Below the pieces are notes generated by a model. The model was given only the letters and a program-made list of their open reading frames with translations. It was not told the origin of the DNA and did not search any database. Positions 27,739 through 59,329 of a DNA stretch of 64,000 bases are shown piece after piece. The translations under genes were made by a program, and so were the position numbers. The stretch's first letter is position 1; every line of letters begins with the position of its first letter. Origin of the DNA: an uncultured Methanosarcinales archaeon (lineage in GTDB: Archaea > Nanobdellota > Nanobdellia > Woesearchaeales > JAGVZT01); the NCBI GenBank assembly GCA_964444505.1, contig CAYUHF010000007.1, positions 6,720 through 70,719 on the forward strand. Direction: 5' to 3'.

Positions 27739-28361
27739 GGTACTTCAATATAATGCTGGTTTTTTTCCCAGTTTTCCCACGGGATTTCTCCAAATTCACA
27801 TTCACTGCATGTCCAATCAAGATATATCCAGCCATCGTTTTTGTATCTTCTTGGGGCTTCATCAAGCTTTATTCGAACATATGCATGTCCATGAACAATT
27901 ACCAGCTGAGCATCAACACCTACAGCTTCCATCAAAGATGCAAGGAGTATTGAACCTGACTCACAGTCTCCGCCACCAGAGGACATAACTTTCACAGGAT
28001 GCTCAATATATTCTGTGCTTAATGGATCAGAGATGTACTGGATTCTGTCCCTTACAAAATAGTAGATTGCCTTTGCATAGCATATCTTGTTGTCCTCACA
28101 AGAGACTGATGCAATTTTATTTGCTGAATATTTAACTTCTGATGGGATTACTGCTGATCTTAAACCATCAACTTCTGAAAAGTTTTGGGAAGGGTCCAGA
28201 ACTTCACTTATCTCTGGAATGCTTGATGGAGATGGATTTTGTCCAATTCCATAATAGGGCACAATAGTTACTATAAGTATAAAAACAAGAATAAGTGCAA
28301 GCATAATCCTAATTGGATTTCTCCAGCTTTGGTCCTCTTGTTCAGACTCTTCCATATTCAT
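27735..28361 (-). CDS. membrane-anchored transglutaminase-like cysteine protease
   Basis: N-terminal TM segment plus a Cys-His-Asp core (GGDCESGSILLASLMEAVG..VIVHGHAYVRI..DWT). It lies 26 nt downstream of the giant gene on the same strand. Confidence 0.65.
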   Translation of the reverse strand: MNMEESEQEDQSWRNPIRIMLALILVFILIVTIVPYYGIGQNPSPSSIPEISEVLDPSQNFSEVDGLRSAVIPSEVKYSANKIASVSCEDNKICYAKAIYYFVRDRIQYISDPLSTEYIEHPVKVMSSGGGDCESGSILLASLMEAVGVDAQLVIVHGHAYVRIKLDEAPRRYKNDGWIYLDWTCSECEFGEIPWENWEKNQHYIEVP

Positions 28362-28387: not shown

Positions 28388-31300
28388 TTACTTAAAAACA
28401 TCGATAACGAGTTTAGTTGGCTTTCCTCTGAAAACAACTACTCTTACTTGTCTTACCAGATGTTCAACATCAGATGCTGCTGTGTCAACCACTCTTAGTT
28501 CTTGGGTTTCGTAGGGTTCTCCCTCACAGCAGATAATTTCATGTGTACTATTATATGCTCTTACCCATCCATCATTTTTGTTGTTGCAGATTCTTGTTGT
28601 ATTTGCATCAAAGAATTCACATCCAACCTTGCCGTTACATTCCCTATGACATATTCTGTCATTAATGTAAGTACAGTCTGATTCACATGGTTCAAATTCC
28701 CAGACTATTGTGAAGTTAATTTCTTTCACATCGAAGATTTCTACTTCTTGTTTTGTTACTGTATCTGACCTAAAGCCAATTTTTGATGCCATTAGGTCGT
28801 ATGTAGCATTAGCAATCACGTAGCTTTCATAATAACCTGAACCATTGGTTGTAACATTGTATCTATAAGTTACTTTCCTTACATCATCATAGCCTACAAA
28901 TTCCACAGTGGCATTTGGTACTCCCTGTCCTGTAGAGTTCTTGACCCAGCCAAAGAATACTGCATTTGTGTCGCCAAAGTGCCATTCACCAGGATCACAC
29001 AACTCCTGCCAGCCATCCCCGTCAATATCTGTGTAGATTTGATCGTGCAGATCATGCTGGTTGTATATTCTTATCCTGCACTCACCGTCAACCCACTGAC
29101 ATCTGTCGTCTTCATTACACTCTTTCATATCAATCCTAGGATTATCATTATCTTCATACTGTGAACATTCACTTGCTAACTGCTGTTCATCTAATTCGAG
29201 CTGTGCATAAACAATATCATAGTCTTTGTAGCACTTTCCTTCAAACACACAATCAGTTTCATTATCACAGCAGGCATTATCTGAATAATTTATCCTGTCC
29301 ATAAAAAATCCTTCAATAAGTGATTCTTTGCTTGTGCTTACTACTTCACGGAACCTAAATGTTTCTCCAAGATCATCACCACAGCATTCTGTTGATGTGC
29401 TCAGATCATATTCACCAAATGAGAAAGTCTCTCCATTTTGTGTCCAGTTCAAATCACAGAGTTGACATTGGGCACTACCACTATCACAATCATACCACCT
29501 GTCAAATCCTGGTTCGCACAATGCTATATTGTCATTTCCTGTCGGATTAAAGTTGTTTGCATTTTCGTTATCTTCATAACAGGCACCACTTACATTAACA
29601 CAATCATTCGTGTTATTGCAGCATCCATTTGTATTTGGGTCATCGGGCCACACCATTGAAATATCATTGTTGACATCTGCATTTCTTTTCAAATACTTGT
29701 ATGTCTCGTTAAGATCATCTCCACAACACTCATAGTCATCAAGAACATTTGTGTATTCGCCTACAAACTCACCTGCTCTTGTCCAATGTGCTTCAAGTCC
29801 TACTGTACCCAGTAGTGCATTGCATCCAGTACACTTGGCCATTTCATAATCACAATCAATCCACTGGTCACTTTCTAATGCCTCTCCACAATAAGCTACT
29901 CTGTCATAATCATCTGTATCATTAAGGAATCCTGCATTATTCTCCTGCACACATAGATTGTCTTTGTCCACACAGTTATTGTCTTCCCTGCAGCAAGCTT
30001 CTGTGTTGAGCTCCTTGTTGACAAATGCATTTGCCCCCCCAACATATTTTGTAAAGTTTTTGTAGTACTCAAATGAGTCATCTCCACAGCATCTGGGTGT
30101 GGTCAGGTCATAGTACTCTCCAACATTTGATTCTCCGGCAGTGACGGCATTGTGATCCGTATCAGGAGCATAAGTTCTATCACCATAAAGTTTTGGAGGA
30201 TTCTGTGGACCGCAAATATCTGCGCACCAGAAGTCCATAAAGTCAGCATCGTCACAGTCAAGCCAGGTTCCATTACCGTTTGAATCTAAGCCACTATAGC
30301 AATGTGAGTAAGTGTCATTACCTCCAATGTTCAGATTACCAGTTGTTGCTTCGATTATATCTGATTGACCTTCATTTTGAGTGTTTGACGAGTAGCAATT
30401 GCTTCCGTTCACACAGTCTGTCTGTGAATCACAGCAGGCATCTTCATTGTCATCAAATTCAATTTCGCTTAGTCCACTCACATGTTCTTCAAGTGATTCT
30501 TCATATCTGATAAACTCTGGAACGTCATCTCCGCAACATTCATCTCCTCCCACTTCTCCGCCTATCTGCCAGCCATAATCATTTTCTAAACAGTAATTCT
30601 CATCATCAATATCATACCATCCACCTTCATAGCACATCACTTCATGCTGTCCACCGTCTACCCAAATTGTAGTACTATTTTCAAAGCATTCTCCGTTGAA
30701 GACACAATCTGTTTCTTTATCACAGCATGCATCATCGTTAGTGTCAGTAACAATACTGGAATCTCCCTGATCTTGAACATCTCTGAATACATAATATTCT
30801 GAAAGATCATCACCACAGCATTCTGTTGATGTGCTGAGATCATATTCGCCAAATGAAGATGTCTCCCCATTTTCTGCATAGTCAAATCCACACTGGTTTT
30901 CACAGAAACTCTGTGAGCCGTCACAATCTCTCCATTCTCCTGAAACACACCTTTCTCCTGCTACTGTATCCAAGTTAACATCTAACATTGTGCCTGAGGC
31001 ATAGCAATCACCGTCAAATACACAATCTCCTGAATTATCACAACATGCCTCATCCCCACTATTTGATCCTCCAGTACAGTTCTCATTTGTTCGGTCATTG
31101 CACGTACTAGCTGCATAATCTCTACGGTAGTTGTATTCTTCATTTGCATCATCACCGCAACAACACATCTGACTGGCGTGGTCTCCTGAAGCAATGTTGC
31201 AGAAGTTGGGTCTGGTGTGACCAAAAGCATCATAGTAATATCCATCTTCTGATACTGCTTCTCCACCCACATTCCAGAAGTATGTGGGTTCGCATACACC

Positions 31301-34300
31301 TATTGCGTAATCGAGATTAAGCCAGCTCCCATCGTCTCCCTGACTTTCTGGCAGACAGAAATAATCTTCTCTTCCATCGTTATCATAATCAATATATTCT
31401 CCTGGATCATAGCAAATTCCATTGAAAACACATTTATCAGCGCCTGTACAGCAGGCATTATCTGTGGTATCATTCTGTGCTTTTCCATGGTCTTCTTCCT
31501 GCGGCATATTTGGCCTGAATAATCTGAAATAATTATAGTACTCGTCTTCATCATCACCACAGCAATTAAGTTGTCCTCCCCCAGCTGTCCAGTCTATACC
31601 CATATCACCTGCTGTTGTGTCACAGGTTGAATCACAGTATGACTGGAGTTCATCTGGATCCTGCCATCGTGCATTGCTGCAATAAGACTTGTGGCCTGTA
31701 CCAAAACCATGGCATTGCCCCTGTACAACACAATCACCAGTTGTATTAACACAGTCTGTTGCAGAGCTACAGCAAGCTTCGTCTGCCCCAGAACACCAAG
31801 CATTATTGGAATTGTCTGAATCATAGCATTCCACATAATTTTCAAAGAAATCATCACCACAACAGTTTGCGACGCCTGACTCAAATATCCAGGAAGTACT
31901 ATAACAACTGCTTCCCGGAGGACAAGCATCCATAAACTCATCTATATTATTATCAACCTGATCAGAAGGAACAAGTCCAGTCTCATTATCACAACATGCA
32001 GAGTCAGGAATTCCCCCATCCGTAAAGGTATCTGGATTGCACACTTGGTCTTCACACTGGCAAGTATCATAATCACATTCTTGGTAACCAGAACATGCTG
32101 TGCTTCCATCACATGTTGCAGTGCAATTCTCAAAAGTACATACTGCAGGCCCACAATCTGCTGCCATATCCCCAGTATCTTCTACACATGTACCGTAGTT
32201 TGGATAGTATTTATTTCCATCACATTCTGTATCACACCATCTGCAACCTGCTGTTGCACAATCAGTTGGATTATCAATTTCAGAACAAGTACCAGGGATA
32301 CATGTTATTGACTGGTTTTTATCTGTTCCATTCTGGTGCGAACGATCAATAGTCTCAGCATCATTACCACTATATACACCGCAAACAATATGTACTGTAT
32401 CCTGACCGTCACAATCTATTTGCTCATTATTGAAATATACATCATCATATGTTGCACTCCACGTATCATCTCCATCTTCCCAGCCCAGATCTTCGTCACC
32501 TGAACTATAAACACCATTCTGGTCTCTGTCAATGTAAGCAAAGATACTATCATATCCCTGACCTGATGGTGCTGTGGGGTCAACTGTACAGGTAATATCA
32601 ATATCACTACCTGATACAACTTCTGGTGCCGAGAGTGAGATATCAATTATTCCGACATCACATCCATCATCCCCGTGAATCCCGTCACGGTTATCATAGT
32701 CTGTTTCGCCATCTCCATCATTATCAATACCATCATTGCAGTTACCTGCGATGTGAGATTCCTCTGTCTGGCAGTGCGGATCCTCAAGATCAGTCAATCC
32801 GTCGCAGTCATTATCTATTCCATCATCACATGTTAATTCCCTATCCCATTCAGTCTGGCAGTGACCAGTAAGGTCAACACAATTACTTAAATCTGAACAG
32901 CATCTTTCAGGACCCAAACCAGCTGTCACATAAATCTCATCAACGTCATCTCCACAGCATTCAGTTTCACCTGGCTGATACTCTCCGTGGCCAAAATCTT
33001 CTCCTGATTCAACATAGCAGTCTATACCTGAACAGTCAGGGAGGTTTGTCCCGGAATCACAGTAAGCGCATGTAGTTGACGAGTTATCACAATCATACCA
33101 CTTGCCATCACCAGCTTCAGCTATACAGACTGCATCAGATTCTGAGTCACCAATACCAAGATGATATCCTATATTTAGTGCAGCATAACAATCACCATTA
33201 TAAACACAGTCATCAGTGTTGTCACAGCATGAATTATCTGTAGTAACATCTGCTGGACAAAACATTCCTGCTCCAGATGTGTGGCAATGCCTGTACTCAA
33301 AAAACTCATCTTGGTCATCACCACAGCAAAGTCCCTGTGTTCCTACACCAAACCCAATATCATAGCATGAACTTCCAGGTGGACAGTTTTCTGCAAAGTT
33401 TTCTATTGGCTGCGAAACATCCACGTTTGGATAGTATCCTGTTTCATTATCACAACATTGTTGGCCTGCGTCAGGGTCGCATTCCTCGTCTGTGCACAAG
33501 CAGGTATCAGTATCGCAGGTTGCAGGAAGTGTGCATCCTCCGCTCATACCACACCCGTCCACAATACACTTTCCTTGTGTACAAACTGGGTCTGCACATC
33601 CAGTGCTTGCATCCACACATGTAAGATAGTCTGGATAATATTTTGGTCCATCACACTCCTGATCACACCAAGTACATTGTGGATCTGCATTACAATCTCC
33701 CTCTTCAAGGTCTCCACACCCTTCCAAACAGGTAACTGTCTGCCACACGTCAGGACCGTTCTGGTAGGATCTATTATATTTTTCTCTGGAATCATTATAG
33801 ACACCACATGCAATATCCACACTCGGTGCACTTAGGCAGTTTATTGTTTCATTTCTGAAAACAACTTCATCATCATTCGGCCAGTAATCATCTGAATCCC
33901 ATGTAAAATCTGTATCTCCGGCGTCATATATTCCGTTTCCATTTCTGTCAATATACGCAAAGATACTATCATAACCTGTGCCTGCTGGAGCAGTTGGATT
34001 GACATTACATGTTATGTTAAGTTTTCTCCCAGAGATTACTTCTGTATCTGAAAGTGTGATTGAATCAATTCCGACAGGACAACCATCGTCTCCATGAGGA
34101 GATGGCCCACTAGCTCCCCTGTTTTGAGTGTCATAATCCCATTCTCCATCACAATCTGTATCATTACCGTCATTACACTGGCTCTCTTGCACACCAAACT
34201 CATCTCTGCAGAGGTTTAGGCTGTCAACACAGTTCTTACCATCCTGACAACATCTTGGGTCTCCAACTCCGTCCGAGACATAATTTTCATTATCATCATC

Positions 34301-37300
34301 TCCACAGCACTCCGAGGCAGTTCCAGAGTTGTATTCTCCAAATTGTGATGATTCTCCTCCCTGGACATAATCAAGACCACATAATGCCCCAGTACATGTT
34401 GTAGAATCAGCATCACAGTCCCTCCACTCGCCAGCAATACATATCGCACCAGGAATACTATCTGCATCCGGGTCACCTTTTGTATCTTCAATATAGCAGT
34501 CTCCACCATATACGCAATCATTCTCCCCACTGCAACAAAACTTATCTGAAGGATCTGAACCTCCTACACAGTTATTATCATAAATATCAGAGCATGCACT
34601 TCCTCCCTGATCAACCAAGTAGGTGAAATATTCTGAATCATCATCTCCGCAGCAAATTCCGTTTGATTTAATATTATAACAGGAAGTCCCTGGGGGACAG
34701 TTCTCTGCAAAGTTTTCTATTGGCTGCGAAACATCCACGTTTGGATAGTATCCTGTTTCATTATCACAGCACTGCGGGCTTGAATCAGGGTCGCATTCCT
34801 GATCCTCACACTGGCATGTATCATAGTCACATTCCTGATTGCCTGAACATGCTGTGCTTCCATCACATGTTGCAGTGCAATTCTCAAAAGTACATACTGC
34901 AGGCCCACAATCTGCTGCCATATCTCCGGTATCTTCAACACACATACCGTAGTTTGGATAGTATTTATTTCCATCACATTCTGTATCACACCATCGGCAA
35001 CCTGCTGTTGCACAGTCGACTGAGTTTTCAATTTCAGAACAAGTGCTTGGGATACATGTTATTGAGTGGGATTTATCTGTTCCATTCTGGTATGATCTGT
35101 CCCATGGTTCAGTTGGAGAGGAATATACTCCACAAACAACATGTACTGTATCCTGACCGTCGCAATCTATTTGCTCATTATTGAAATAAACTTCACCATA
35201 GGTCGGATCCCAAGTATCATCTCCATCTTCCCAGCTCAGATCCTCGTCACCTGAACTCCACACACCATTCTGATCCCTGTCAACATACGCAAAAATACTA
35301 TTATATCCTCTATCTTTTGGTGCTGTCGGATCAACTGTACAAGTAATGTCAATATCATTACCTGATACTACTTCTGCTGCCGAGAGTGAGATATCAATTA
35401 TTCCTACATCGCATCCATCATCTCCATGCTCAGGATCATTCATATTATCATAATCAGTCAAATCATCCCCGTCATTATCGATACCATCATTACAGTTACC
35501 TGCGATGTGAGATTCCTCTGTCAAGCAGTTTGGATCTTCATCGTCCGTCAGACCGTCACAGTCATTGTCAATATCATCATCACAATTCACACCCAGCGTT
35601 TCAGTACCAGATCTGCAATTGTTTGTTCCATCAACGCATGTATTCCCGTCTGCACAGCATCTGGGTTCACCAACTCCTGCTGTAATGTAATTCTCACCTG
35701 CATCGTCTTCACAACATTCCTCTTCGGCACCTGTGTCGTATTCACCAAATTGAACAGATTCACCACCATAAACATAGTTATAGTCACAGATTGTCTCGCA
35801 AGCATAATTATTTGAGTCACAATCCGACCACCTTCCAGGATTATCACCTGACAAATCCCAATCGTTACACCATTCACCCAGTACACCATCTCCGTCAATA
35901 TCTGCCATATCAAGATCATTATAACAAGTGCTCTCAAAGACACATTGTTGACTTTGAGGGCAACAAGTACCGTCTGTAACATCATCACTTTTTCCGACAC
36001 ACACAGGATTAGTTATGTCGTTGCATCCATTTGTGGCATATTGGTCATAGTAAACATAATATTCTTGGTTATCATCTCCACAGCAAGCTGCATTTCCTTC
36101 AAGAAATGTCCAATCTTCGCTATAACAACTACCAGACGAAGACGCAGGACATTGGTTGTCAAAAACACTTGGTTCATTATCAGTATTCATATTAGGTAAA
36201 TAACTTCCTTCACTATCACAGCAAGCTTGGCTTAAATCAGGATCACATGGTGTTGCTTCATAGCAGTTGCCACTGGCATCAACTATTTTATCTGACTCAT
36301 TACAACATCTGGCAGGGTTTACACCATCATTGATATAGTATTCGTTAGGGTCGTCACCACAGCATTCTTCTTCAGAATCAAAATTACATCCCAGGTTTTC
36401 ACACTCTGTCTTATCACTTAAAACTGAACAATCACCCATATTTGTACACTCATCTAAAAAACTGTCCCATGCACATCCCGCTTCACTTAAGCCATTACAG
36501 CAGGATAATGATCCTCCACAAGCAGCATAGCAATCAAATGTTCCAGAGCAACGCAATTCATATTCTCCATGGTCTGTTAATTCACCTGAATAAGCTACTC
36601 CTGTATTAACTCCTTCTGAGGCTCCCCACTCTTCACAATAATCATAGTCAGGATCTATCCAATATCTATCCTTACAATAGAAACTTTGAGATATTGAATT
36701 CCCATTGCAATTCATATCCTCTCCATATCTAAAAGTTGTATCACTAGGATAACAGCAACGTGGACCAACAATAGGATATGCACCCCCTATACAATCTGTC
36801 TCTGACTGACAGCAAGCAACACTATTGGTGTTGTGTACCTCAGAAGTATCATCCTCATCAGTGTAAGCCATATTATGTATAGCATAATCAAATAAACCAT
36901 CACAACAAACTGGTGAGCTAGCATTCACTATAATTTCAGTTTTTCCCCATTGGGCCCAGTCGTATCCTGTATCTCCCTCCCAGGAATTTCTTTCAGGATG
37001 TGTAGTAAACCAAAATCGTTGGATTGATCCAGCATAATTACTAAGATCTACAGCAAAAGGTACCCACCCTGTATCATTTACTAAAAGTCCACTCCATACA
37101 ACGCTATCAGATACGCTATTGAGATCCATTTTTGAAGTGGTGCTTATTCTAATAGTGAACCAAACACCCCCGCTATTTCTGGAACCATCGGCTATACCCG
37201 CATAGCCCACAAGATATGCATCATCCGGAACAAATTTATCGTATATATGTACTGTTGTTCCAGTTCCTACTGCCGTATTCCATGAAGGATGTGCCTGTCT

Positions 37301-38692
37301 TGCGACCATTGCCTCACCCCCCACAGTCGGATATCCAATATTCTGCTGCTGACATACATCCCAGAACATTCCCTCATTAGTTTTTGTCCCATTTCTTCCG
37401 GGTTTTGGATCTGAATAGAAATCACTGTATACATCTCCTGATGACTTAAAGAATTCATTAGCATCATCTCCACAACACCCTGTTTCCAAAAGAATGGAGT
37501 CTCCCGCTCTTATTGCAATGTCATCAAAATAAATTGGCATTCCATCCGCATTGTCGCCATCTGTAACTGCTCTTATTCTGACAGTACCACTAGAATCAGA
37601 TGTAAAATTACATTGCACATATTCCCACTGGTTGTATACGCCAGCAGTGGTTCCTGCATGACACTCATATACTGCATCATGAAGATCAAGATAAGCATTT
37701 CCTGGATAGAAAAGATCAGTCTTTTCTCTGTATATATAGCCTGTGAGATTGAACATTGTATTTTTTGGTACATCAACTTCCTGCCAGGTGCTTACCCCTG
37801 GACCTGTTCCTGTCCAACTGCTCTTCAAAGAGTAACTTCCTGAATGGGCCCTCTCATCAGACCTAGTATGATCAGCATGCTCATTCCAATCTTCAGCATC
37901 GTTACTTGATCCTCTTTCAAATCCTGAGTTTTTAACCACTCCTCTGTATTCTCCATGTGGTGTCCTTTCCCCACTCTGGACTCCCGCGGGACTACCACAA
38001 TATGCATTTGGATAGTCCCAATCCGAATTTGTACAGGCACCACTATCCCAGGAATCACAACTTGGATTACACCAGTTCTTGAACCAATTGTTTGAGTCAC
38101 AGTCAAGCCAGGTCGCTGGCTGGGAATCTGGGGCGGATGGACTTTGATCATAGAGACAATATGCTAGATTATCATTACGACCTGGATGAAGCCCCACATG
38201 AATAAAATCACCGAATTGTGAAAAACTGCTGCCTGATGGATGAGGATCTCCTTCCTTATCAAGGCACTCCGCACTTAAACTAACTCTGGTATCAGCGTGG
38301 TTACAAAAACCTATTGTCTGATATCCCCACTTGTCAATGTGAGCACATCTGTTAACAAAAAAGCCAGAGAATATAGTGTCATTGTCACAGTCCTCCGGAT
38401 AATCTGGATTCGAGGGATTACAACCATCCTCACAGCTTCTCGCATCATAAAAGCCAGGCTCTCCAATTACCTGTGTACATGTTTGCCCGTCTGCCTCATC
38501 AAAAGTACCACATGCATTACATGTGCATGAATCTTCTCCTCGACTGCATTCAAAATAATTTTCTCCCCATGAAGGGGGTTGGTAACAGCAAACAACAGTT
38601 TCCCCAGCAACTTGTAAGACTAAAAATAGACATAATACACTAATTATCCAAAAATGCTTCCTCATATCCAGCCTCTTTTTTATTTTTTTCAA
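28388..38692 (-). CDS. giant secreted cysteine-rich surface protein (3434 aa)
   Basis: The start shows a Sec signal peptide. A CBM4/9-like jelly-roll domain (GFERGS..W..AHSGSYSLK) follows. There are more than 10 CCGDD...CC...CY modules and three ~460-aa tandem repeats. A C-terminal carboxypeptidase-regulatory-like domain is present. The protein has no TM anchor other than the signal peptide. Confidence 0.85.
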   Translation of the reverse strand: MKKIKKRLDMRKHFWIISVLCLFLVLQVAGETVVCCYQPPSWGENYFECSRGEDSCTCNACGTFDEADGQTCTQVIGEPGFYDARSCEDGCNPSNPDYPEDCDNDTIFSGFFVNRCAHIDKWGYQTIGFCNHADTRVSLSAECLDKEGDPHPSGSSFSQFGDFIHVGLHPGRNDNLAYCLYDQSPSAPDSQPATWLDCDSNNWFKNWCNPSCDSWDSGACTNSDWDYPNAYCGSPAGVQSGERTPHGEYRGVVKNSGFERGSSNDAEDWNEHADHTRSDERAHSGSYSLKSSWTGTGPGVSTWQEVDVPKNTMFNLTGYIYREKTDLFYPGNAYLDLHDAVYECHAGTTAGVYNQWEYVQCNFTSDSSGTVRIRAVTDGDNADGMPIYFDDIAIRAGDSILLETGCCGDDANEFFKSSGDVYSDFYSDPKPGRNGTKTNEGMFWDVCQQQNIGYPTVGGEAMVARQAHPSWNTAVGTGTTVHIYDKFVPDDAYLVGYAGIADGSRNSGGVWFTIRISTTSKMDLNSVSDSVVWSGLLVNDTGWVPFAVDLSNYAGSIQRFWFTTHPERNSWEGDTGYDWAQWGKTEIIVNASSPVCCDGLFDYAIHNMAYTDEDDTSEVHNTNSVACCQSETDCIGGAYPIVGPRCCYPSDTTFRYGEDMNCNGNSISQSFYCKDRYWIDPDYDYCEEWGASEGVNTGVAYSGELTDHGEYELRCSGTFDCYAACGGSLSCCNGLSEAGCAWDSFLDECTNMGDCSVLSDKTECENLGCNFDSEEECCGDDPNEYYINDGVNPARCCNESDKIVDASGNCYEATPCDPDLSQACCDSEGSYLPNMNTDNEPSVFDNQCPASSSGSCYSEDWTFLEGNAACCGDDNQEYYVYYDQYATNGCNDITNPVCVGKSDDVTDGTCCPQSQQCVFESTCYNDLDMADIDGDGVLGEWCNDWDLSGDNPGRWSDCDSNNYACETICDYNYVYGGESVQFGEYDTGAEEECCEDDAGENYITAGVGEPRCCADGNTCVDGTNNCRSGTETLGVNCDDDIDNDCDGLTDDEDPNCLTEESHIAGNCNDGIDNDGDDLTDYDNMNDPEHGDDGCDVGIIDISLSAAEVVSGNDIDITCTVDPTAPKDRGYNSIFAYVDRDQNGVWSSGDEDLSWEDGDDTWDPTYGEVYFNNEQIDCDGQDTVHVVCGVYSSPTEPWDRSYQNGTDKSHSITCIPSTCSEIENSVDCATAGCRWCDTECDGNKYYPNYGMCVEDTGDMAADCGPAVCTFENCTATCDGSTACSGNQECDYDTCQCEDQECDPDSSPQCCDNETGYYPNVDVSQPIENFAENCPPGTSCYNIKSNGICCGDDDSEYFTYLVDQGGSACSDIYDNNCVGGSDPSDKFCCSGENDCVYGGDCYIEDTKGDPDADSIPGAICIAGEWRDCDADSTTCTGALCGLDYVQGGESSQFGEYNSGTASECCGDDDNENYVSDGVGDPRCCQDGKNCVDSLNLCRDEFGVQESQCNDGNDTDCDGEWDYDTQNRGASGPSPHGDDGCPVGIDSITLSDTEVISGRKLNITCNVNPTAPAGTGYDSIFAYIDRNGNGIYDAGDTDFTWDSDDYWPNDDEVVFRNETINCLSAPSVDIACGVYNDSREKYNRSYQNGPDVWQTVTCLEGCGDLEEGDCNADPQCTWCDQECDGPKYYPDYLTCVDASTGCADPVCTQGKCIVDGCGMSGGCTLPATCDTDTCLCTDEECDPDAGQQCCDNETGYYPNVDVSQPIENFAENCPPGSSCYDIGFGVGTQGLCCGDDQDEFFEYRHCHTSGAGMFCPADVTTDNSCCDNTDDCVYNGDCYAALNIGYHLGIGDSESDAVCIAEAGDGKWYDCDNSSTTCAYCDSGTNLPDCSGIDCYVESGEDFGHGEYQPGETECCGDDVDEIYVTAGLGPERCCSDLSNCVDLTGHCQTEWDRELTCDDGIDNDCDGLTDLEDPHCQTEESHIAGNCNDGIDNDGDGETDYDNRDGIHGDDGCDVGIIDISLSAPEVVSGSDIDITCTVDPTAPSGQGYDSIFAYIDRDQNGVYSSGDEDLGWEDGDDTWSATYDDVYFNNEQIDCDGQDTVHIVCGVYSGNDAETIDRSHQNGTDKNQSITCIPGTCSEIDNPTDCATAGCRWCDTECDGNKYYPNYGTCVEDTGDMAADCGPAVCTFENCTATCDGSTACSGYQECDYDTCQCEDQVCNPDTFTDGGIPDSACCDNETGLVPSDQVDNNIDEFMDACPPGSSCYSTSWIFESGVANCCGDDFFENYVECYDSDNSNNAWCSGADEACCSSATDCVNTTGDCVVQGQCHGFGTGHKSYCSNARWQDPDELQSYCDSTCDTTAGDMGIDWTAGGGQLNCCGDDEDEYYNYFRLFRPNMPQEEDHGKAQNDTTDNACCTGADKCVFNGICYDPGEYIDYDNDGREDYFCLPESQGDDGSWLNLDYAIGVCEPTYFWNVGGEAVSEDGYYYDAFGHTRPNFCNIASGDHASQMCCCGDDANEEYNYRRDYAASTCNDRTNENCTGGSNSGDEACCDNSGDCVFDGDCYASGTMLDVNLDTVAGERCVSGEWRDCDGSQSFCENQCGFDYAENGETSSFGEYDLSTSTECCGDDLSEYYVFRDVQDQGDSSIVTDTNDDACCDKETDCVFNGECFENSTTIWVDGGQHEVMCYEGGWYDIDDENYCLENDYGWQIGGEVGGDECCGDDVPEFIRYEESLEEHVSGLSEIEFDDNEDACCDSQTDCVNGSNCYSSNTQNEGQSDIIEATTGNLNIGGNDTYSHCYSGLDSNGNGTWLDCDDADFMDFWCADICGPQNPPKLYGDRTYAPDTDHNAVTAGESNVGEYYDLTTPRCCGDDSFEYYKNFTKYVGGANAFVNKELNTEACCREDNNCVDKDNLCVQENNAGFLNDTDDYDRVAYCGEALESDQWIDCDYEMAKCTGCNALLGTVGLEAHWTRAGEFVGEYTNVLDDYECCGDDLNETYKYLKRNADVNNDISMVWPDDPNTNGCCNNTNDCVNVSGACYEDNENANNFNPTGNDNIALCEPGFDRWYDCDSGSAQCQLCDLNWTQNGETFSFGEYDLSTSTECCGDDLGETFRFREVVSTSKESLIEGFFMDRINYSDNACCDNETDCVFEGKCYKDYDIVYAQLELDEQQLASECSQYEDNDNPRIDMKECNEDDRCQWVDGECRIRIYNQHDLHDQIYTDIDGDGWQELCDPGEWHFGDTNAVFFGWVKNSTGQGVPNATVEFVGYDDVRKVTYRYNVTTNGSGYYESYVIANATYDLMASKIGFRSDTVTKQEVEIFDVKEINFTIVWEFEPCESDCTYINDRICHRECNGKVGCEFFDANTTRICNNKNDGWVRAYNSTHEIICCEGEPYETQELRVVDTAASDVEHLVRQVRVVVFRGKPTKLVIDVFK
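31300..35700 (-). repeat. three ~1.38-kb tandem intragenic repeats; copies 1 and 3 are near-identical
   Basis: The DNA string acagttacctgcgatgtgagattcctctgt (encoding TEESHIAGNC) recurs at ~32740 and ~35490. Antisense ORFs 31942..32154 and 34717..35031 are near-identical. Confidence 0.7.
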
Positions 38693-38785: not shown

Positions 38786-39466
38786 TTGGGTGGTAGATTG
38801 ACTATTGACAGAGTATTCGAGATTTGTTTTGAGGGACCTATTGCATCAGGTAAAACAACCTGCGCCAGACATCTTAAAAAAAACTTGGGTGCCGGCGGAT
38901 TTAGATTAGTGCATGAAGACCCATATGAGAATGAGTTCTTTGGGGATTATTACAGGGCTATGGTGGCTGTGCGTGCAGGAAAACCCGTTCCCTCAGATAT
39001 TGAAGAAGGAATATTTTACATGGCCCAGGACAGGTTTCTTGACTTGACTGTAGAGAGAGAAAGTGCAGGCAATAGTGTGAATAGGGTATCAGACCGGCAT
39101 GTATGGGCTGACATTAATATCTTTGCTGAGGGACTTATAGAAAGAGGTTTGTTTTCACCAGAACACGCCTGCATGTACAGAAAAAAAGCATCAACTATAA
39201 ATATTAATTATCCTGACTTTTTGGTATATCTTGCCACAAGTGATCTGGTTTGTTACCATAGGGCACAAAACCGAAGCAGAGATGAAGAGATGAATGTTTC
39301 ATTTTCGCATTTCGAGTTTATTGGTCAGCGGTACAGGGAGCTGATGCCCACATATCCGGGAAGAGTTTTAACACTTCCAACTGATGAACTTAATCTTGAA
39401 TCTGAGCCTGATGATATCAACTATATGCTTGAACAAGTAGCAGGAGCTCTGGCAAAATTAAATTGA
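38786..39466 (+). CDS. deoxynucleoside kinase (dNK family)
   Basis: P-loop FEGPIASGKTT plus VSDRHVWAD (ERS/DRS-type motif); 226 aa. Confidence 0.7.
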   Translation: MGGRLTIDRVFEICFEGPIASGKTTCARHLKKNLGAGGFRLVHEDPYENEFFGDYYRAMVAVRAGKPVPSDIEEGIFYMAQDRFLDLTVERESAGNSVNRVSDRHVWADINIFAEGLIERGLFSPEHACMYRKKASTININYPDFLVYLATSDLVCYHRAQNRSRDEEMNVSFSHFEFIGQRYRELMPTYPGRVLTLPTDELNLESEPDDINYMLEQVAGALAKLN

Positions 39467-40809
39467 TCAAGATTGGAAAAGATCCGTATCTAAAAAAAGA
39501 AATACACAAAGTTCTCTTTGATGACCGTCCCAAGGTTCAGTACTTTAACCAGTCTGATGTTTATCTTGGCCATCCGAGTTCAAATATTGCTGTTGCATTT
39601 ATTTACACCTGGAAAGATGACCACCCTCCAGAACATGTCAAAAAGTTCATGGAAAAACTCTCAAACTACGCATATATTTCTGGTTTCTGGCGAACCACAA
39701 ATGGTGCCAGGTATGTGTTTTCTAATATTCTTGCAAATCCTAATGTGAACAAGCTTTTTGTTTTTGTGTTTGACTACAAGGACAATGGTCATGCTCTTGT
39801 GAATGCCTTGAAAAACTTCTGGAAAAACGGGATAAGAAATGACGGCACAATAAAGGGCTCAATTGCACAAAACCCCAAGTTTGAGCAGATACCTCATGAT
39901 GCACTCCAGAGGATAAGAAAACAGTGTGATCTGGTTGTGGTTGATAAGATAGACAAAAAAGAGTTTGGCAAGATTGAATATATGGTGAAAAACTCAATTA
40001 ATGAGCCAAAAAATCCTGTCAATCTGGAAGAGTGTGAGCTTTCGCCTGTGTTTATTTCAAATGTTGTTGATAAAAAAATTCTTTATGATGATGGAGCCAG
40101 GTTTAAGGAACCATACCACATTGATCTGTCACAGAATGCCTCAACTGTGGAATACAGGGAGAGAAATCTTTCAAATGTTCTTGGCCAGTCTATCCAGGCA
40201 GAAACCCTTGATGAAGCACTGAAATCTGCTGTTGCCTTTATTTTCAAGAATGGTTCTGTTCATGTTGATGACAGGGGGATTATTACAATTGAGTGCAGAA
40301 GCTTTACAGTTACTATTACTGATGCTCTATCAAAAGTGCCTGATGGTTTTTCAAATGGCTATATTAAAAATTATGTTGAAGAGTTTATGGAAGGGCCCAA
40401 AAACCCTATGGAGTACAATTATCACGAGAGAATCTTCAAGCGATGGGGAAATCAGGTAGAAAGAGTTGTTGAGATGCTTGAGGATCATTCTTCAACACGG
40501 AGGATGGTTATTTCTCTTTGGGACCAGAAAAGTGATCTTGAGAATCCGTGTCCCCCTTGCCTTGATATTATCTGGGTGTGCATTCGAAATGACAAGCTGG
40601 AGATGCATGTTTTGTTCAGGAGTCATCATATAGCTACTGTTACAGAGGATGGAAAACTGATGAAAGGCGAGGGTGCTTTTGTTCCAAATATTATTGCACT
40701 TGTTAATCTCCAGAATTACATTGCCAAGAAACTGGAAGTGGAGAGAGGTGCTTTTGTTTTGTCTGAGTTTTCGGGTCATTTATACACAAGCAAGGTGAAA
40801 AATGGGTAA
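39463..40809 (+). CDS. thymidylate synthase-fold enzyme (ThyA/dUMP hydroxymethylase family) with ~210-aa N-terminal domain of unknown function
   Basis: The C-terminal half aligns to the ThyA core: RRMVISLWDQ..NPCPPCLDIIWVC..LFRSHHIA..GAFVPNIIALVNL..GHLY. This corresponds to SRR..W, PPCH, YQRSxD, PFNIASYALL and GDAHIY. Start and stop overlap the neighbouring genes. Confidence 0.6.
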   Translation: MIKIGKDPYLKKEIHKVLFDDRPKVQYFNQSDVYLGHPSSNIAVAFIYTWKDDHPPEHVKKFMEKLSNYAYISGFWRTTNGARYVFSNILANPNVNKLFVFVFDYKDNGHALVNALKNFWKNGIRNDGTIKGSIAQNPKFEQIPHDALQRIRKQCDLVVVDKIDKKEFGKIEYMVKNSINEPKNPVNLEECELSPVFISNVVDKKILYDDGARFKEPYHIDLSQNASTVEYRERNLSNVLGQSIQAETLDEALKSAVAFIFKNGSVHVDDRGIITIECRSFTVTITDALSKVPDGFSNGYIKNYVEEFMEGPKNPMEYNYHERIFKRWGNQVERVVEMLEDHSSTRRMVISLWDQKSDLENPCPPCLDIIWVCIRNDKLEMHVLFRSHHIATVTEDGKLMKGEGAFVPNIIALVNLQNYIAKKLEVERGAFVLSEFSGHLYTSKVKNG

Positions 40810-41461
40810 ACTAATTGTTCTAGAGGGATTGGATGGTTCTGGTAAGCTGACGCAGCTGAAGATGCTGAAAGAGAGACTTATTAAAGATGGTTATCCTGTT
40901 GACACTTTTGACTTTCCCCAGTATGATTCTTTTTTTGGTGCTCTTGTGGGTAAATACCTGCGGGGTGAATTTGGTTCTATGGTTGAACTTCCAGTTGAGA
41001 TTCCGACTCTGTTGTATGCTCTTGACAGGTACTATGTGAGGGATGATATTGAAGAGTCTCTTGAGGAAAATATTGTTCTTCTTAATAGATACACTCCTTC
41101 AAATACCTGTTTTCAGGGTGCAAAGCTTAAGGGTAAGGACCGAGACAAGTTTATCAAGTGGGTTGGTGCTGTCGAGGCAAGGCTTCCACGACCTGACCTT
41201 GTGCTGTTTCTTGATGTTCCAAGATATATTGCAAGAAATCTAATTGGAAACAAGGATCTTAGAAAGTACCTGAATGGAAAAAAGCAGGATATTCATGAGA
41301 AAAATGATCCTTACCAGGAAGAGGTTGAGAGTCTTTACAGAAGACTTGTGAGGGAGAGGAAAAACTGGATCGGTATCAAATGTGTTGAGTATGACCTACT
41401 GCTAAAGGTGGAGGAAATTCATGATAAAATATGGAAGGTAGTAAAACGGGAGTTAGGGTAG
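40802..41461 (+). CDS. tmk: thymidylate kinase
   Basis: IVLEGLDGSGKLTQ P-loop, ALDRYY (DRY motif) and an LNRYTPS lid. Confidence 0.8.
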   Translation: MGKLIVLEGLDGSGKLTQLKMLKERLIKDGYPVDTFDFPQYDSFFGALVGKYLRGEFGSMVELPVEIPTLLYALDRYYVRDDIEESLEENIVLLNRYTPSNTCFQGAKLKGKDRDKFIKWVGAVEARLPRPDLVLFLDVPRYIARNLIGNKDLRKYLNGKKQDIHEKNDPYQEEVESLYRRLVRERKNWIGIKCVEYDLLLKVEEIHDKIWKVVKRELG

Positions 41462-42694: not shown

Positions 42695-43372
42695 ATGGGG
42701 AAATTTGTGATTGTAGATGGTATTGACGGCTCTGGAAAAGGGGCTGTTATGGATGCTTTCAGGGAGTGGACAGAAGAAAAGGAACTCTCATCTATTGATG
42801 TTAGTGAGTACTGCAGAAAACATGAGACTTTCCCGGATATTTCTGAGTATGATGTTGTTTTTTCAAAGGAGCCTACCCAGAATTATGTTGGAAGGGCAAT
42901 TTCTGAAGAGTTTATAAAAGATAGAAGCTATAGTGTTACTTCTACTGCATGGGCTTTTGCTCTTGACAGGGAGATTTTGTACAAAAAAGTTATTATTCCT
43001 GCTCTCAAGGCTGACAAGTTTATTTTCCAGGAAAGAGGTATAACAACGTCTCTTGTTTACCAGCCAGTGCAGGGGAGAATAACCTTAAAGGAACTGATTG
43101 GTATTCCTGGAAACAGGCTTGCCATAAAAAACCAGCCTGATCTTGTTATTGTGACAAAGGTTGAACCCAAGGTTGTTATCCAGAGGATGAGGGTTTCGGG
43201 CAAGCTTGGTTCTGACAGGTTCAGTGAACTGAATTTCCAGAGAAAGATTGACCAGAGATATTCAAGTCCGTGGTTAAGAAAGGTTTTTTCTGACAAGATA
43301 AGGTATATTGATACAAATCCTCCGAATACTGTTAGTGACACCAAGAAAAAGGCAATTGAATATGCTTTCTGA
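42695..43372 (+). CDS. Tmk-like P-loop nucleotide kinase (divergent paralog B)
   Basis: IVDGIDGSGKG P-loop, ALDRE motif and QERGITTSLVYQ. Confidence 0.55.
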   Translation: MGKFVIVDGIDGSGKGAVMDAFREWTEEKELSSIDVSEYCRKHETFPDISEYDVVFSKEPTQNYVGRAISEEFIKDRSYSVTSTAWAFALDREILYKKVIIPALKADKFIFQERGITTSLVYQPVQGRITLKELIGIPGNRLAIKNQPDLVIVTKVEPKVVIQRMRVSGKLGSDRFSELNFQRKIDQRYSSPWLRKVFSDKIRYIDTNPPNTVSDTKKKAIEYAF

Positions 43373-57430: not shown

Positions 57431-59329
57431 TTACCACTCCATGTCAACTAATAGTGGACTATCTTGCTCCACTCTTAACTCCAAATTAGGCTCCCATAGC
57501 CCAAGTCTTTCCATTTCCGTGATCTTCTCCCCATTTCTGATTGGGTATCTGCATCCATCAATCACTTTTGTATCAATATCAGATGCATTAGGATATGGAT
57601 CATAGTCTATTCCAGGAGCTGCCAGTATTCCATCTTCAAGTGCCCTATCAATTATATGAGGCTTAACAAGATTCTCTACCAGTCCATCTGAAACAATATC
57701 ATTGCCTCTGTAACCATTTAGCCTCCCTATGGCATTAAGTATAACCTTAGCCTCACTAATTAATTCCTGCCTTCTTGACCTTACTCTAGTATCATTTTCA
57801 AAATCAGGCATCTCCTGCCAATTGTTTCTGAAATAATCGATTGCAGTGAGGGCAAGCTTTGCACTATGCACAACATTATCAACATCTGCTGCGCCTCGTG
57901 CTTCATCTGTATTAACAACATGCATCAGTGTTGGTCCAGATGTTCTACCCAAAACATTATCAACCCTTGGATTTATCATCATCTGTAGAAGAGTAGATGT
58001 TGCTAACTGCCTATCAGCGATATCCCCTGGCTTCAAGTACATCAGGCCGGTTCTTGTTTCAACATGCATAGGACCCTTCCTAATCATTTTAGCAATTTCA
58101 AGAGATGCTGACATTCTGGCGTAGTCTCCCCATGATGATATTGGAGGCGTGTTAAACATCAGCTGAATTATGTAATCATTTACACTGCATACATTTGCAG
58201 CGGCTGCTGCCAACCCGTGTGCTGCTACTGTGATAGTATCATGTCCGTACCTTAATGCATAGTGATGTGCATAGTTTGATTCTATTGGAACATTCTTACT
58301 AGCCAGAAATTTTGCAAGGTTAATATGCTCTCTAACTGCCGCTTCTGGGGTCAATGGGCCCCTTCGGTCTAACAAGCTAAACCATTCTCCTGGTAGTGGA
58401 ACTGCCTGCATTGCTTCATCAATTTTCAGAAATCTTAGTGCTGCCTCATTAAAATTCCTCATATTATCAGTACCACAGTAGGGTTTTATACTCGGGAAAT
58501 TTCCCCTCCTTGTTGCTTCATAAAGCTTCATCATGTCTAGTGAGTCTCTTATTACAACTCCACCATCATCAGGACCTAATTCCGAATCAGGGTCCCAATA
58601 TTTCCTATGTCCGAAAAACCTACCCAGTTGGGTACGCTGTGAAGAACCAAGAGACATTAATCCAATTATGTATTCTTCTGCAATTCTCTCAATTCCATTA
58701 ATTGTTGGGACAGGCGAGTGTGGATCTGTGGGTCCAAAGTGAGTCCTAAGAGTCACGGTACCTTTAAGCTCATCCTCGCGCATTCTGACAATAAGACTTT
58801 TTTTTGCTTTGTCGCTTGGTTCCTCTACACCAGAATGTGCAAAATAGTCCTTTTCAAGAATTCTTTCTGCATGTTCAATTAATCGAGGATCATCCCCAAT
58901 CTGTGACATTCTGTGGCATGTGTATTTTTGTGCATTATCCTTTGGTACACCAAGCGCGGTAAGCACCTCCATAATATCTTTTTCAGGGTAATCACTTTGG
59001 GCAAAAACTTCAATCTCCGGAAACCTTGATTTCACCTGTTCTGTAGCTGGACCCAGTCCCCCAAAAAAAATCCTGCGTCCGTCATAGAGCCCATTTTGCT
59101 TAAGTCCCGCTACCAACTCTTCTGCAAAAACTACAGCTCTATCTGGGCTTAACCTATAACTAATAGCAACAATTCCAGGGTCTTCTGAGTAGACCTGATC
59201 AAGAAGACCAGAAATGTCTTCTGCAATAGGCAGTAGTGAGTACCCATGATCTTTTGCAATAGATGTAAAATTCTGTATTCCTGCTTTGTGCGCACAATCC
59301 CCCATAACATAAGGTGAAATCTTTCTCAT
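57431..59329 (-). CDS. fused cobalamin-binding domain protein (glutamate-mutase S-like domain plus ~500-aa E-like domain)
   Basis: The N-terminal ~130 aa align positionally with glutamate mutase MutS (GDCAHKAG = DxHxxG; ...GGLG...). No radical-SAM CxxxCxxC motif is present. Confidence 0.45.
   Translation of the reverse strand: MRKISPYVMGDCAHKAGIQNFTSIAKDHGYSLLPIAEDISGLLDQVYSEDPGIVAISYRLSPDRAVVFAEELVAGLKQNGLYDGRRIFFGGLGPATEQVKSRFPEIEVFAQSDYPEKDIMEVLTALGVPKDNAQKYTCHRMSQIGDDPRLIEHAERILEKDYFAHSGVEEPSDKAKKSLIVRMREDELKGTVTLRTHFGPTDPHSPVPTINGIERIAEEYIIGLMSLGSSQRTQLGRFFGHRKYWDPDSELGPDDGGVVIRDSLDMMKLYEATRRGNFPSIKPYCGTDNMRNFNEAALRFLKIDEAMQAVPLPGEWFSLLDRRGPLTPEAAVREHINLAKFLASKNVPIESNYAHHYALRYGHDTITVAAHGLAAAAANVCSVNDYIIQLMFNTPPISSWGDYARMSASLEIAKMIRKGPMHVETRTGLMYLKPGDIADRQLATSTLLQMMINPRVDNVLGRTSGPTLMHVVNTDEARGAADVDNVVHSAKLALTAIDYFRNNWQEMPDFENDTRVRSRRQELISEAKVILNAIGRLNGYRGNDIVSDGLVENLVKPHIIDRALEDGILAAPGIDYDPYPNASDIDTKVIDGCRYPIRNGEKITEMERLGLWEPNLELRVEQDSPLLVDMEW

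What the first reader, a model, noticed from the sequence alone, without database searches (positions are those of the whole stretch)
31300..35700. Near-identical ~1.38-kb tandem repeats inside the giant gene
- Three consecutive ~460-aa units occur, each containing CDDGIDNDCDGLTD..EESHIAGNCNDGIDNDGD..GDDGCDVGIIDISLS.. and so on.
- Copies 1 and 3 are nearly identical at the DNA level.
- The string acagttacctgcgatgtgagattcctctgt recurs with ~2750-bp spacing, and antisense ORFs 31942..32154 and 34717..35031 are almost identical.
- Copy 2 between them is clearly diverged.
- This pattern indicates recent unequal recombination or gene conversion.
- It is a hot spot for copy-number variation and also for short-read assembly collapse or expansion.
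Basis: seen in the sequence. Interest (0 to 1): 0.55.

Follow-up and report, generated by a model that had tools for sequence, protein, structure and literature searches.

The report
Old triplicated module in giant archaeal gene
A 10.3-kb gene for a secreted, cysteine-rich giant protein of an uncultured DPANN-type archaeon carries three tandem ~1.4-kb units, parts of which were later re-copied between units; this is real but old and ordinary for giant surface proteins, not a recent duplication or an assembly hazard.

Summary
The repeat is real. The ORF 28388..38692 (-) of 3,434 aa holds three ~440-480-aa super-units, and a self-comparison shows clear off-diagonals at 2754/2751 nt and 1314 nt. 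"Near-identical" is overstated. Copies 1 and 3 share only an ~800-nt tract at 83.5% DNA identity. In that tract dS is about 0.70, dN about 0.10 and omega about 0.14. The rest of these units is 40-60% identical, with synonymous sites saturated. Copy 2 is 49% identical in protein to copy 1. It nevertheless shares a separate 154-nt tract (84%) with the neighbouring units.

Maximal chi-square breakpoints are sharp (0 of 300 permutations). The array is therefore an old triplication that was patched at least twice by gene conversion between units, and both converted copies have since been under purifying selection. The longest exact shared run is 80 nt, so collapse in short-read assembly is unlikely. 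Every repeat offset is a multiple of 3, so unit gain or loss would stay in frame, but no related strain was available to test copy number.

The repeated core is a ~260-aa module with no Pfam match: an Asp/Cys motif, a beta-sandwich with an EF-hand-like loop, and a Cys-rich tail. About 20 cysteine-rich secreted proteins from metagenomes carry it, usually as one copy.

The parts
28388..38692 (-). Giant gene of 3,434 aa (TTG start; the NCBI model of 3,425 aa starts at the ATG at 38665). The protein is acidic (pI 4.05) and about 376 kDa, with 284 Cys (8.3%), 13% Asp and 16 CC[GE]DD modules.
38600..38692 (-). N-terminal signal-peptide-like segment (MKKIKKRLDMRKHFWIISVLCLFLVLQVAG|E). It is the only strongly hydrophobic stretch of the protein.
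   Evidence: Kyte-Doolittle scan; read directly from the sequence; no signal-peptide predictor was available
35588..36250 (-). HM0, aa 815-1035: a 'head' (CCDSEG...) plus two CC[GE]DD modules that precede module copy a.
34799..35587 (-). Module copy a, aa 1036-1298: double Asp/Cys motif, beta-sandwich, Cys-rich tail.
34178..34798 (-). HM1, aa 1299-1505: head (CCDNETG...) plus two CCGDD modules.
33485..34177 (-). Module copy b, aa 1506-1736: diverged, and lacks the first 30-aa motif.
32834..33484 (-). HM2, aa 1737-1953: head plus two CCGDD modules.
32045..32833 (-). Module copy c, aa 1954-2216: 85% aa identity to copy a.
31433..32044 (-). HM3, aa 2217 to about 2420: a fourth, diverged head plus two CCGDD modules. 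No module follows it.
34784..35584 (.). Homogenised tract 1, upstream copy. It pairs with 32030-32830 at 83.5% identity and offset 2754/2751. It contains the 80-nt exact run 34845-34924 (= 32091-32170) and the 51-nt run starting at 34945 (= 32191).
32030..32830 (.). Homogenised tract 1, downstream copy.
34670..34823 (.). Homogenised tract 2 (end of module a plus head 1). It pairs with 33356-33509 at 84.4% identity and offset 1314. It contains the 65-nt exact run 34704-34768 (= 33390-33454).
33356..33509 (.). Homogenised tract 2, second copy (end of module b plus head 2).
28706..28951 (-). CarboxypepD_reg-like beta-sandwich (aa 3248-3329). It is the only Pfam domain in the protein, and relatives P0004 and P0022 have it too.

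Best explanation
The region is the middle of a gene for a secreted, acidic, cysteine-rich giant protein of a Woesearchaeota-like (DPANN) archaeon.

Layout. The protein is built from ~110-aa CCGDD modules. In its centre a super-unit of ~440-480 aa occurs three times in tandem. Each super-unit is a 'head', two CCGDD modules and a ~260-aa module.

History. The triplication happened inside this lineage and is old, because most of each unit is saturated at synonymous sites. Later, at least two non-reciprocal copying events (intragenic gene conversion by homologous recombination) overwrote parts of units. An ~800-nt tract was copied between the modules of units 1 and 3. A ~154-nt tract was copied between the heads that follow modules 1 and 2. 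These events are themselves old (dS about 0.65-0.70). Both copies have since evolved under purifying selection (omega about 0.14), so all three modules are probably functional. Exact runs of 51-80 nt nested in the tracts suggest that further short conversions came later.

Function (inferred, not shown). Each module is a calcium-stabilised, disulfide-rich binding unit. Tripling it adds reach or avidity to a surface or extracellular adhesin-like protein.
For: Shown:
- A single open frame of 3,434 aa.
- Off-diagonals at 2754/2751 and 1314 nt.
- Unit map and per-window identities.
- Module a-c: dS 0.70, dN 0.10, omega 0.14. Head 1-2: dS 0.64. All other pairs: dS above 1.6 or saturated.
- Sharp breakpoints. 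U0-U2 goes from 51% to 84% and U1-U2 from 92% to 57%, each with 0 of 300 permutations. U0-U1 has no significant breakpoint.
- A run of 26 identical codons, P = 1.5e-4 by codon permutation.
- Copies a, b and c are monophyletic against 14 module copies from 13 other proteins (99.6% bootstrap), and a+c are sisters at 100%.
- The whole module recurs in about 20 representative proteins, nearly always once per protein. P0004 has two. P0004 also keeps the same CCGDD module directly upstream of its first module.
- There are exactly three modules in the 64-kb window.
- AlphaFold with 12 sequences gives mean pLDDT 72, with a beta-sandwich at module residues 59-180 at about 75-93.
- Archaeal, Woesearchaeota-like host. 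ValRS is 62-67% identical to Woesearchaeota MAGs, though the top hit (66%) and some other close hits carry an 'uncultured Methanosarcinales' label. The window also holds a thermosome, an archaeal CCA-adding enzyme and an MtrA-ThyA fusion.

Inferred from sequence pattern and general knowledge:
- The family-wide conserved loop D-x-[DN]-x-N-G-[VI]-Y-x-x-G-D (columns D102, N106, G107, Y109, G112, D113) fits the 12-residue EF-hand/dockerin calcium loop.
- C-N-D-G-I-D-N-D-G-D-G-x-x-D-Y-D fits DxDxDG-type calcium motifs.
Against: - No reads, strains or orthologues were available. Neither copy number nor the direction or count of the conversion events could be verified.
- dS for the head tract rests on only about 27 synonymous sites.
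- Codon-usage constraint could lower dS somewhat.
- An ~800-nt duplicative replacement is hard to tell apart from gene conversion.
- The functional reading (calcium binding, adhesion) has no Pfam, NCBIfam or PDB support.
- The fold search gave only generic Ig-V-like beta-sandwich matches (TM about 0.5 or less, rmsd 5-8 A).
- The protein has no C-terminal membrane anchor, so attachment to the cell is not shown.
Confidence: 0.7

Rival explanations
1. Recent unequal crossing-over or duplication: an actively expanding and contracting array that is a hot spot for copy-number variation.
For: - Tandem layout with in-frame offsets of 2754, 2751 and 1314 nt, all multiples of 3.
- Exact shared tracts of 80, 65 and 51 nt could support homologous recombination.
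- The run of 26 identical codons is longer than chance allows.
Against: - dS is about 0.70 and 0.64 in the best-conserved tracts and saturated elsewhere.
- Overall identity is 83.5%, not near 100%.
- The most similar copies are not adjacent, and their flanks are only about 51% identical.
- A simple A-B-A-B block duplication is excluded. The 'middle' segments of units 1 and 3 are saturated (dN 0.62), and head 1 matches head 2 rather than head 3.
Confidence: 0.1
2. Assembly artefact: strain variants or collapsed repeats were joined wrongly, creating an apparent extra unit.
For: The source is evidently a metagenome-assembled contig: the gene's product is on record on a single 74.8-kb contig and no isolate relative was found. 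Repeats are a classical cause of misjoins. Read mapping could not be done.
Against: - The frame stays open for 10.3 kb across all junctions.
- The copies differ at 16.5% of sites, with a substitution pattern typical of purifying selection. Codon position 3 is 71% identical against 88-91% for positions 1 and 2. This is far beyond strain variation.
- The longest exact repeat is 80 nt, too short to confuse assemblers working with 100-150-nt reads.
- A clearly different copy b lies between a and c.
Confidence: 0.05
3. No conversion at all. The three modules arose by ordinary stepwise duplication: b split first, and a and c split later through a duplicative insertion of the module alone. The head similarity would reflect strong constraint.
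For: - The tree ((a,c),b) fits two successive duplications.
- Copies a and c share a derived extra 30-aa motif that b and most relatives lack.
Against: - Copy c sits in exactly the same slot of an older, already diverged head-plus-CCGDD scaffold as a and b do. This is what replacement of an existing module predicts, not a new insertion.
- The second tract (head 1 and head 2) has low dS (0.64) as well as low dN, so constraint on the protein cannot explain it.
- Three segments give three different groupings.
Confidence: 0.15

Closest known systems
Tandem-repeat surface adhesins of bacteria that evolve in concert (for example staphylococcal Aap/SasG G5-E repeats, streptococcal alpha-C/Rib, Bap-type and giant RTX adhesins). 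Named from general knowledge, not tested here.
   Same: A large secreted protein with an N-terminal signal peptide. Beta-sandwich modules are reiterated in tandem, the repeat offsets are in frame, and there is evidence of sequence exchange between repeats.
   Different: Those arrays usually have many copies that are nearly identical in DNA, with documented strain-to-strain changes in copy number. Here there are three copies at 57-84% DNA identity, the exchange is patchy and old, the unit is very long (about 1.4 kb) and composite, and no copy-number data exist.
Giant surface proteins of DPANN archaea (nanohaloarchaeal 'SPEARE' proteins SVXNc_0300 and BNXNv_0298; PMC10266531).
   Same: A small-genome DPANN-type archaeon spends over 10 kb on one secreted, acidic (pI about 4) protein with Ig-like modules. 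Related giant proteins there also differ by a block of tandem Ig/fibronectin-like domains.
   Different: No sequence relationship was found. This protein shows no VirB4/TraG-like ATPase domain and no membrane anchor. It is 3.4 kaa rather than 8.9-9.4 kaa, and it is exceptionally rich in cysteine (8.3%), which is not a feature reported for those proteins.
Asp/Cys 'putative metal-binding motif' repeats (Pfam PF11617 Cu-binding_MopE), bacterial TSP3 repeats (PF18884) and the DUF4215 cysteine-rich repeat.
   Same: The N-terminal motif C-x-D-G-x-D-N-D-C-D-G-x-x-D looks like the second half of the MopE-type motif. Most of the 488 library hits match only this ~50-aa part. Relatives P0005, P0007 and P0009 carry true PF11617 hits elsewhere in their sequence.
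   Different: None of the three module copies reaches any Pfam model, even at E <= 5. The beta-sandwich and the Cys-rich tail are not covered by these families.
An unnamed family of cysteine-rich secreted proteins from metagenomes (P0004, P0005, P0007-P0014, P0022, P0023, P0036, P0042 and others).
   Same: They share the whole ~230-260-aa module (E from 1e-44 to 1e-15). They also have signal-peptide-like N-termini, about 5-10% Cys, often a CarboxypepD_reg domain, and in several a similar C-terminal strand ending in W.
   Different: They are 0.6-2.5 kaa with one module (two in P0004). The window's protein has three modules and 16 CCGDD modules. Module identity is only 30-42%.

Membership tests
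Concertedly evolving tandem-repeat adhesins (high-identity repeat arrays) | Repeat copies are nearly identical at the DNA level (typically above 95%). | tested here: not met
   The best pair is 83.5% over 806 columns with dS 0.70. Other pairs are 48-67%.
Concertedly evolving tandem-repeat adhesins (high-identity repeat arrays) | Copy number varies among strains. | not testable with these tools
   No close relative of the gene was found in the protein database, genome contigs or metagenome contigs.
Concertedly evolving tandem-repeat adhesins (high-identity repeat arrays) | Sequence exchange between repeats (a mosaic, non-tree-like pattern). | tested here: met
   Two tracts give conflicting groupings with sharp breakpoints, and 0 of 300 permutations reach the observed value.
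Pfam PF11617 Cu-binding_MopE (putative metal-binding motif) | A match to the profile at or above the gathering score. | tested here: not met
   No hit for the whole protein at E <= 0.1, nor for the three modules scanned alone at E <= 5.
Pfam PF18884 TSP3_bac / thrombospondin type-3-like calcium repeats | A match to the profile. | tested here: not met
   No hit in the giant protein. The DxDxDG-like pattern was seen by eye only.
Diversity-generating retroelement target (variable repeat and template repeat) | Mismatches between the two repeats are confined to adenines of one copy, and a reverse transcriptase lies nearby. | tested here: not met
   The mismatch spectrum is symmetric (38 A, 36 T, 29 C, 27 G), with 71 transitions and 59 transversions, mostly at third codon positions. 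No RVT domain appeared among the roughly 40 window ORFs scanned.
DPANN giant 'SPEARE'-type surface proteins | A VirB4/TraG-like ATPase domain and membrane anchoring, as described in PMC10266531. | tested here: not met
   The only Pfam domain is CarboxypepD_reg. The only hydrophobic segment is the N-terminal one.
Unnamed module family (Asp/Cys motif + beta-sandwich + Cys-rich tail) | A full-length profile match, including the 23 invariant columns such as H53-G54, C58, C82, D102, Y109, W118, R164-S165 and the Cys of the tail. | tested here: met
   All three copies match (domain E 1e-77 to 1e-84 against the 12-sequence profile, which includes copies b and c, so those two matches are partly circular). 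Relatives score E 1e-44 to 1e-15 against the 3-copy profile.
Pfam PF13620 CarboxypepD_reg | A match above the gathering score (32.3 bits). | tested here: met
   34-35.7 bits at aa 3248-3329. This lies outside the repeat region.

The most novel reading that the evidence does not exclude
The triplicated ~260-aa unit may be an undescribed, calcium-binding, disulfide-knotted adhesion module. It is so far seen only in cysteine-rich secreted proteins from metagenomes; two of these sit in an archaeal gene context (this window and L024), while the taxonomy of the others was not determined. Under this reading, the nested exact tracts show that short-tract gene conversion is still shuffling sequence between copies. 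Conversion would then keep two of three binding modules alike while a third diverges. That would be a small-scale concerted-evolution system in the host-contact protein of an episymbiotic archaeon.
Probability: 0.3. Interest if true: 0.35.

Novelty: new member of a known kind. Interest (0 to 1): 0.2.

Why it matters
Annotation and assembly. The three-unit structure can be trusted about as much as any metagenomic contig, and it need not be flagged as a collapse-prone repeat.

Biology. The case shows how a genome-reduced archaeon enlarges a presumed surface protein: it reiterates a composite module and then patches the copies by gene conversion. It also points to a conserved module of about 260 aa and a CCGDD repeat that no curated family covers. 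Both could be defined as new domain families and tested for calcium-dependent binding.

None of this would surprise a specialist in repeat-containing surface proteins.

Tried and rejected
Searches for relatives
- Close relatives that could show copy number: a word-index search with the whole protein returned only the protein itself plus two distant proteins sharing CCGDD modules.
- An exact-product contig look-up found nothing.
- Scans of genome contigs and metagenome contigs with the whole protein found nothing.
- A word-index search with the 3-copy module profile gave one marginal hit.

Family and fold assignment
- Pfam and NCBIfam on the whole protein, and Pfam on its pieces, gave no hit except CarboxypepD_reg.
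- A PDB sequence profile search gave only E > 0.2 noise.
- Foldseek against the PDB, with both models, gave only generic antibody-V-like beta-sandwiches with TM about 0.5 or less.
- The first AlphaFold run, with only 3 sequences, was poor (pLDDT 50).

Alternative explanations
- DGR-type mutagenesis was rejected because the mismatch spectrum is symmetric.
- An A-B-A-B block duplication and single unequal-crossover models were rejected. They predict similar 'middle' segments, or head 1 matching head 3, and neither is seen.
- A conserved partner gene was rejected. The transglutaminase-like gene downstream here is not next to the relative P0004 in L024.

Other
- BLASTP of the protein against itself returned only the trivial hit, so the unit alignments were made by hand-anchored MAFFT.
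- Two literature searches found nothing on this protein family.
Full report
**What is at the coordinates**

The finding lies inside one open reading frame, 28388..38692 on the minus strand. It is 3,434 codons long and starts at a TTG. The public protein model P0001 is identical but starts nine codons later.

The product has a single hydrophobic segment, at its N-terminus, that looks like a signal peptide. It is acidic (pI 4.05, about 376 kDa) and has 284 cysteines (8.3%) and 13% aspartate. The motif CC[GE]DD occurs 16 times. Each occurrence is embedded in a loosely conserved ~110-aa module of the form W.DCD...C...GGE..FGEY...ECCGDD..E.Y...CC...CV..G.CY. Pfam recognises only a CarboxypepD_reg beta-sandwich near the C-terminus (aa 3248-3329), and NCBIfam recognises nothing.

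**Host and setting**

The flanking genes are ordinary archaeal housekeeping genes. They include a thermosome subunit, an archaeal CCA-adding enzyme, GluRS, ValRS, PFOR subunits and an MtrA-like/thymidylate-synthase fusion. The ValRS is 62-67% identical to Woesearchaeota MAGs; its top hit (66%) and some other close hits carry an 'uncultured Methanosarcinales' label, and there is nothing closer in the species-representative genome set. The window is therefore chromosomal DNA of an uncultured DPANN-type archaeon. GC content is about 38-40% and rises to 42-43% inside the gene.

**Checking the observation**

A k-mer self-comparison of the gene gives strong off-diagonals. Offset 2754 has 142 shared 14-mers, offset 2751 has 45 and offset 1314 has 55. 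A weaker one lies at 1434. The repeat finder and BLASTN agree on the following tracts:
- 34784-35584 vs 32030-32830, 83.5% over 806 columns
- 34670-34823 vs 33356-33509, 84.4% over 154 nt
- 30797-30888 vs 29363-29455, 86% over 93 nt (outside the finding)
- 33944-34097 vs 32525-32678, a faint 71% over 155 nt (module b vs module c)

The module starts at aa 1037, 1506 and 1955 give periods of 469 and 449 aa. The ~2.75-kb off-diagonal and the three units are therefore real.

Three details in the finding are wrong:
- Copies 1 and 3 are 83.5% identical, not nearly identical, and only over ~800 nt of the ~1,400-nt unit.
- The quoted peptide strings are absent from copy 2, which lacks the first 30-aa motif.
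- The two 'antisense' ORFs are same-strand, out-of-frame shadows of the gene. They resemble each other only across the 80-nt exact run.

**Anatomy of the array**

I aligned the units anchored on the conserved 'head' (ECDPD..CCDNETG). The pattern is HM0 - Ia - HM1 - Ib - HM2 - Ic - HM3. H is a ~45-aa head, M is two CCGDD modules and I is a ~230-263-aa module. A six-frame search with the module profile finds exactly three modules in the 64-kb window.

Identity in 30-codon windows shows a mosaic:
- Ia and Ic are 71-93% identical in DNA (85% in protein).
- Ib is 48-68% identical to either.
- H1 and H2 are 83-90% identical, whereas H0 and H3 are diverged.
- The M segments are 40-67% identical in every pairing.

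Maximal chi-square tests place sharp breakpoints. U0-U2 rises from 51% to 84% at the start of the module. U1-U2 falls from 92% to 57% after the head. Each result was reached by 0 of 300 permutations. U0-U1 has no significant breakpoint.

**Age and selection**

Nei-Gojobori estimates:

| Comparison | dS | dN | omega |
|---|---|---|---|
| Ia vs Ic | 0.70 | 0.10 | 0.14 |
| H1 vs H2 | 0.64 | 0.08 | 0.13 |
| every other pairing | above 1.6 or saturated | | |

For Ia vs Ic, codon position 3 is 71% identical, against 88-91% for positions 1 and 2. The H1-H2 estimate rests on about 27 synonymous sites.

The shared tracts are thus younger than the array but not recent, and both copies have been kept under purifying selection.

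Inside tract 1 there is a run of 26 identical codons (the 80-nt exact run), which is improbable under codon permutation (P = 1.5e-4). Tract 2 contains a 65-nt exact run. These nested runs suggest later short conversion events, although local codon constraint cannot be excluded.

The mismatch spectrum is symmetric with no adenine bias. This excludes a DGR template/variable-repeat pair.

**History**

A neighbour-joining tree of 17 module copies from 14 proteins puts a, b and c together (99.6% bootstrap), with a and c as sisters (100%). All three therefore arose within this lineage.

The most similar copies are not adjacent, their flanks are about half identical, and different segments support different groupings. 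A simple tandem duplication, an A-B-A-B block duplication or a single unequal crossover does not fit. Each of those predicts similar M segments, or H1 resembling H3, and neither is observed.

The most economical reading is an old triplication followed by at least two non-reciprocal exchanges. Notably, Ia and H1 are contiguous in the gene (915 nt), while their partners Ic and H2 are separated. The same region therefore took part in both events. A duplicative replacement of the module alone remains a weaker alternative.

**What the module is**

A full HMMER scan of 1.84 billion representative proteins with the three-copy profile found 488 hits at E <= 1e-3. Most match only the first ~50 positions, the widespread Asp/Cys motif. 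About 20 proteins carry the complete module at E from 1e-44 to about 1e-15, normally once. P0004 has two, and these are also sisters in the tree.

These proteins are 0.6-2.5 kaa with signal-peptide-like N-termini and about 5-10% Cys. Some have a CarboxypepD_reg domain, and several have a similar C-terminal strand ending in W. P0004 lies on a metagenome contig next to a DRG-type GTPase, which indicates an archaeal context. It has the same CCGDD module directly upstream of its first module. The 'CCGDD module + module' adjacency therefore predates the triplication.

The 12-sequence alignment has 23 invariant columns. Eleven are cysteines. One is H53-G54 of the HGDD motif, and another is R164-S165 of the DRSYQ motif. 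The loop D-x-[DN]-x-N-G-[VI]-Y-x-x-G-D fits the 12-residue EF-hand/dockerin calcium loop. That fit is my reading of the pattern and was not tested.

AlphaFold with this alignment gives mean pLDDT 72. It shows a well-supported beta-sandwich at residues 59-180 and a small mixed Cys-rich tail. Foldseek against the PDB returns only generic Ig-V-like sandwiches. No Pfam, NCBIfam or PDB sequence match exists.

**Assembly and copy number**

The longest exact repeats in the gene are 80, 65 and 51 nt. That is below ordinary read length and well below what causes collapse. The frame is intact across all junctions, and the copies differ far more than strains do. A misassembly is therefore unlikely, although only reads can exclude it.

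All offsets (2754, 2751, 1314, 1434) are multiples of three. Recombination between the exact tracts would thus add or remove one or two units in frame. The potential for variation exists, but there is no evidence that it occurs, because no close relative of the gene was found anywhere.

**Comparison with known systems and verdict**

The phenomenon is tandem reiteration of beta-sandwich modules in a very large secreted protein, with exchange between repeats. It is well known from bacterial adhesins. DPANN archaea are known to encode giant surface proteins implicated in host contact, and related versions of those differ by blocks of tandem Ig-like domains (PMC10266531).

This protein is not a member of those families. 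It has no VirB4-like ATPase and no membrane anchor, its repeats are not highly identical, and the MopE and TSP3 profiles do not match.

It is a new, expanded member of an uncurated family of cysteine-rich proteins, and its repeat history is ordinary.

Noticed in passing
window 38786-43372 (+): A nucleotide-salvage cluster lies divergent from the giant gene. It holds a deoxynucleoside kinase (38786..39466), a 448-aa fusion of an MtrA-like domain with the C-terminal part of thymidylate synthase (39463..40809), and two thymidylate-kinase-like ORFs (40802..41461, 42695..43372). Two ORFs with no Pfam match lie among them.
   Followed up: partly
window 27735-28361 (-): A 208-aa protein with a transglutaminase-core domain and an N-terminal hydrophobic segment starts 26 nt downstream of the giant gene's stop, on the same strand. 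It could process or cross-link the giant protein. The pairing is not conserved next to the relative P0004 (L024).
   Followed up: partly
window 29363-29455 vs 30797-30888: A third short high-identity tract inside the giant gene, outside the finding: 86% over 93 nt at offset 1434, with a 33-nt exact run. It links two distant CCGDD modules (FSFGEYDLSTSTECCGDDL). Patchy exchange is therefore not confined to the three super-units.
   Followed up: partly
window 9285-10670 (-) and 11297-13120 (-): Two ORFs share a nearly identical N-terminus (MK[RS]GQINST[IV]IVF[IM]LSIIII...) that resembles an archaeal class III (type IV pilin-like) signal peptide. The longer ORF also has a pectate-lyase fold domain and a bacterial TSP3 repeat.
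   Followed up: no
window 56286-57317 (-) and 59331-60626 (-): A D-Ala-D-Ala-ligase-like ATP-grasp protein and an octopine/nopaline-dehydrogenase-like protein sit in an archaeal context. They flank a 632-aa ORF with no Pfam match (57431..59329).
   Followed up: no
relatives P0004, P0012, P0022, P0023, P0025, P0037 and window aa 3400-3434: Several proteins of the module family end with a similar strand (...V.[MI].[VI].[TV]W[KED]), and two of them (P0004, P0022) have a CarboxypepD_reg domain shortly before it. The window protein ends ...KLVIDVFK. This may be a shared C-terminal sorting or attachment element.
   Followed up: no
window 1-64000: No tRNA gene (ARAGORN) and no Rfam family at gathering threshold were found in the 64 kb.
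   Followed up: yes
window 34720-35184 (+): A 154-aa ORF lies antisense to the giant gene, within module a and head 1. It has no support beyond being open, and it is probably a by-product of the skewed codon composition of the gene.
   Followed up: no
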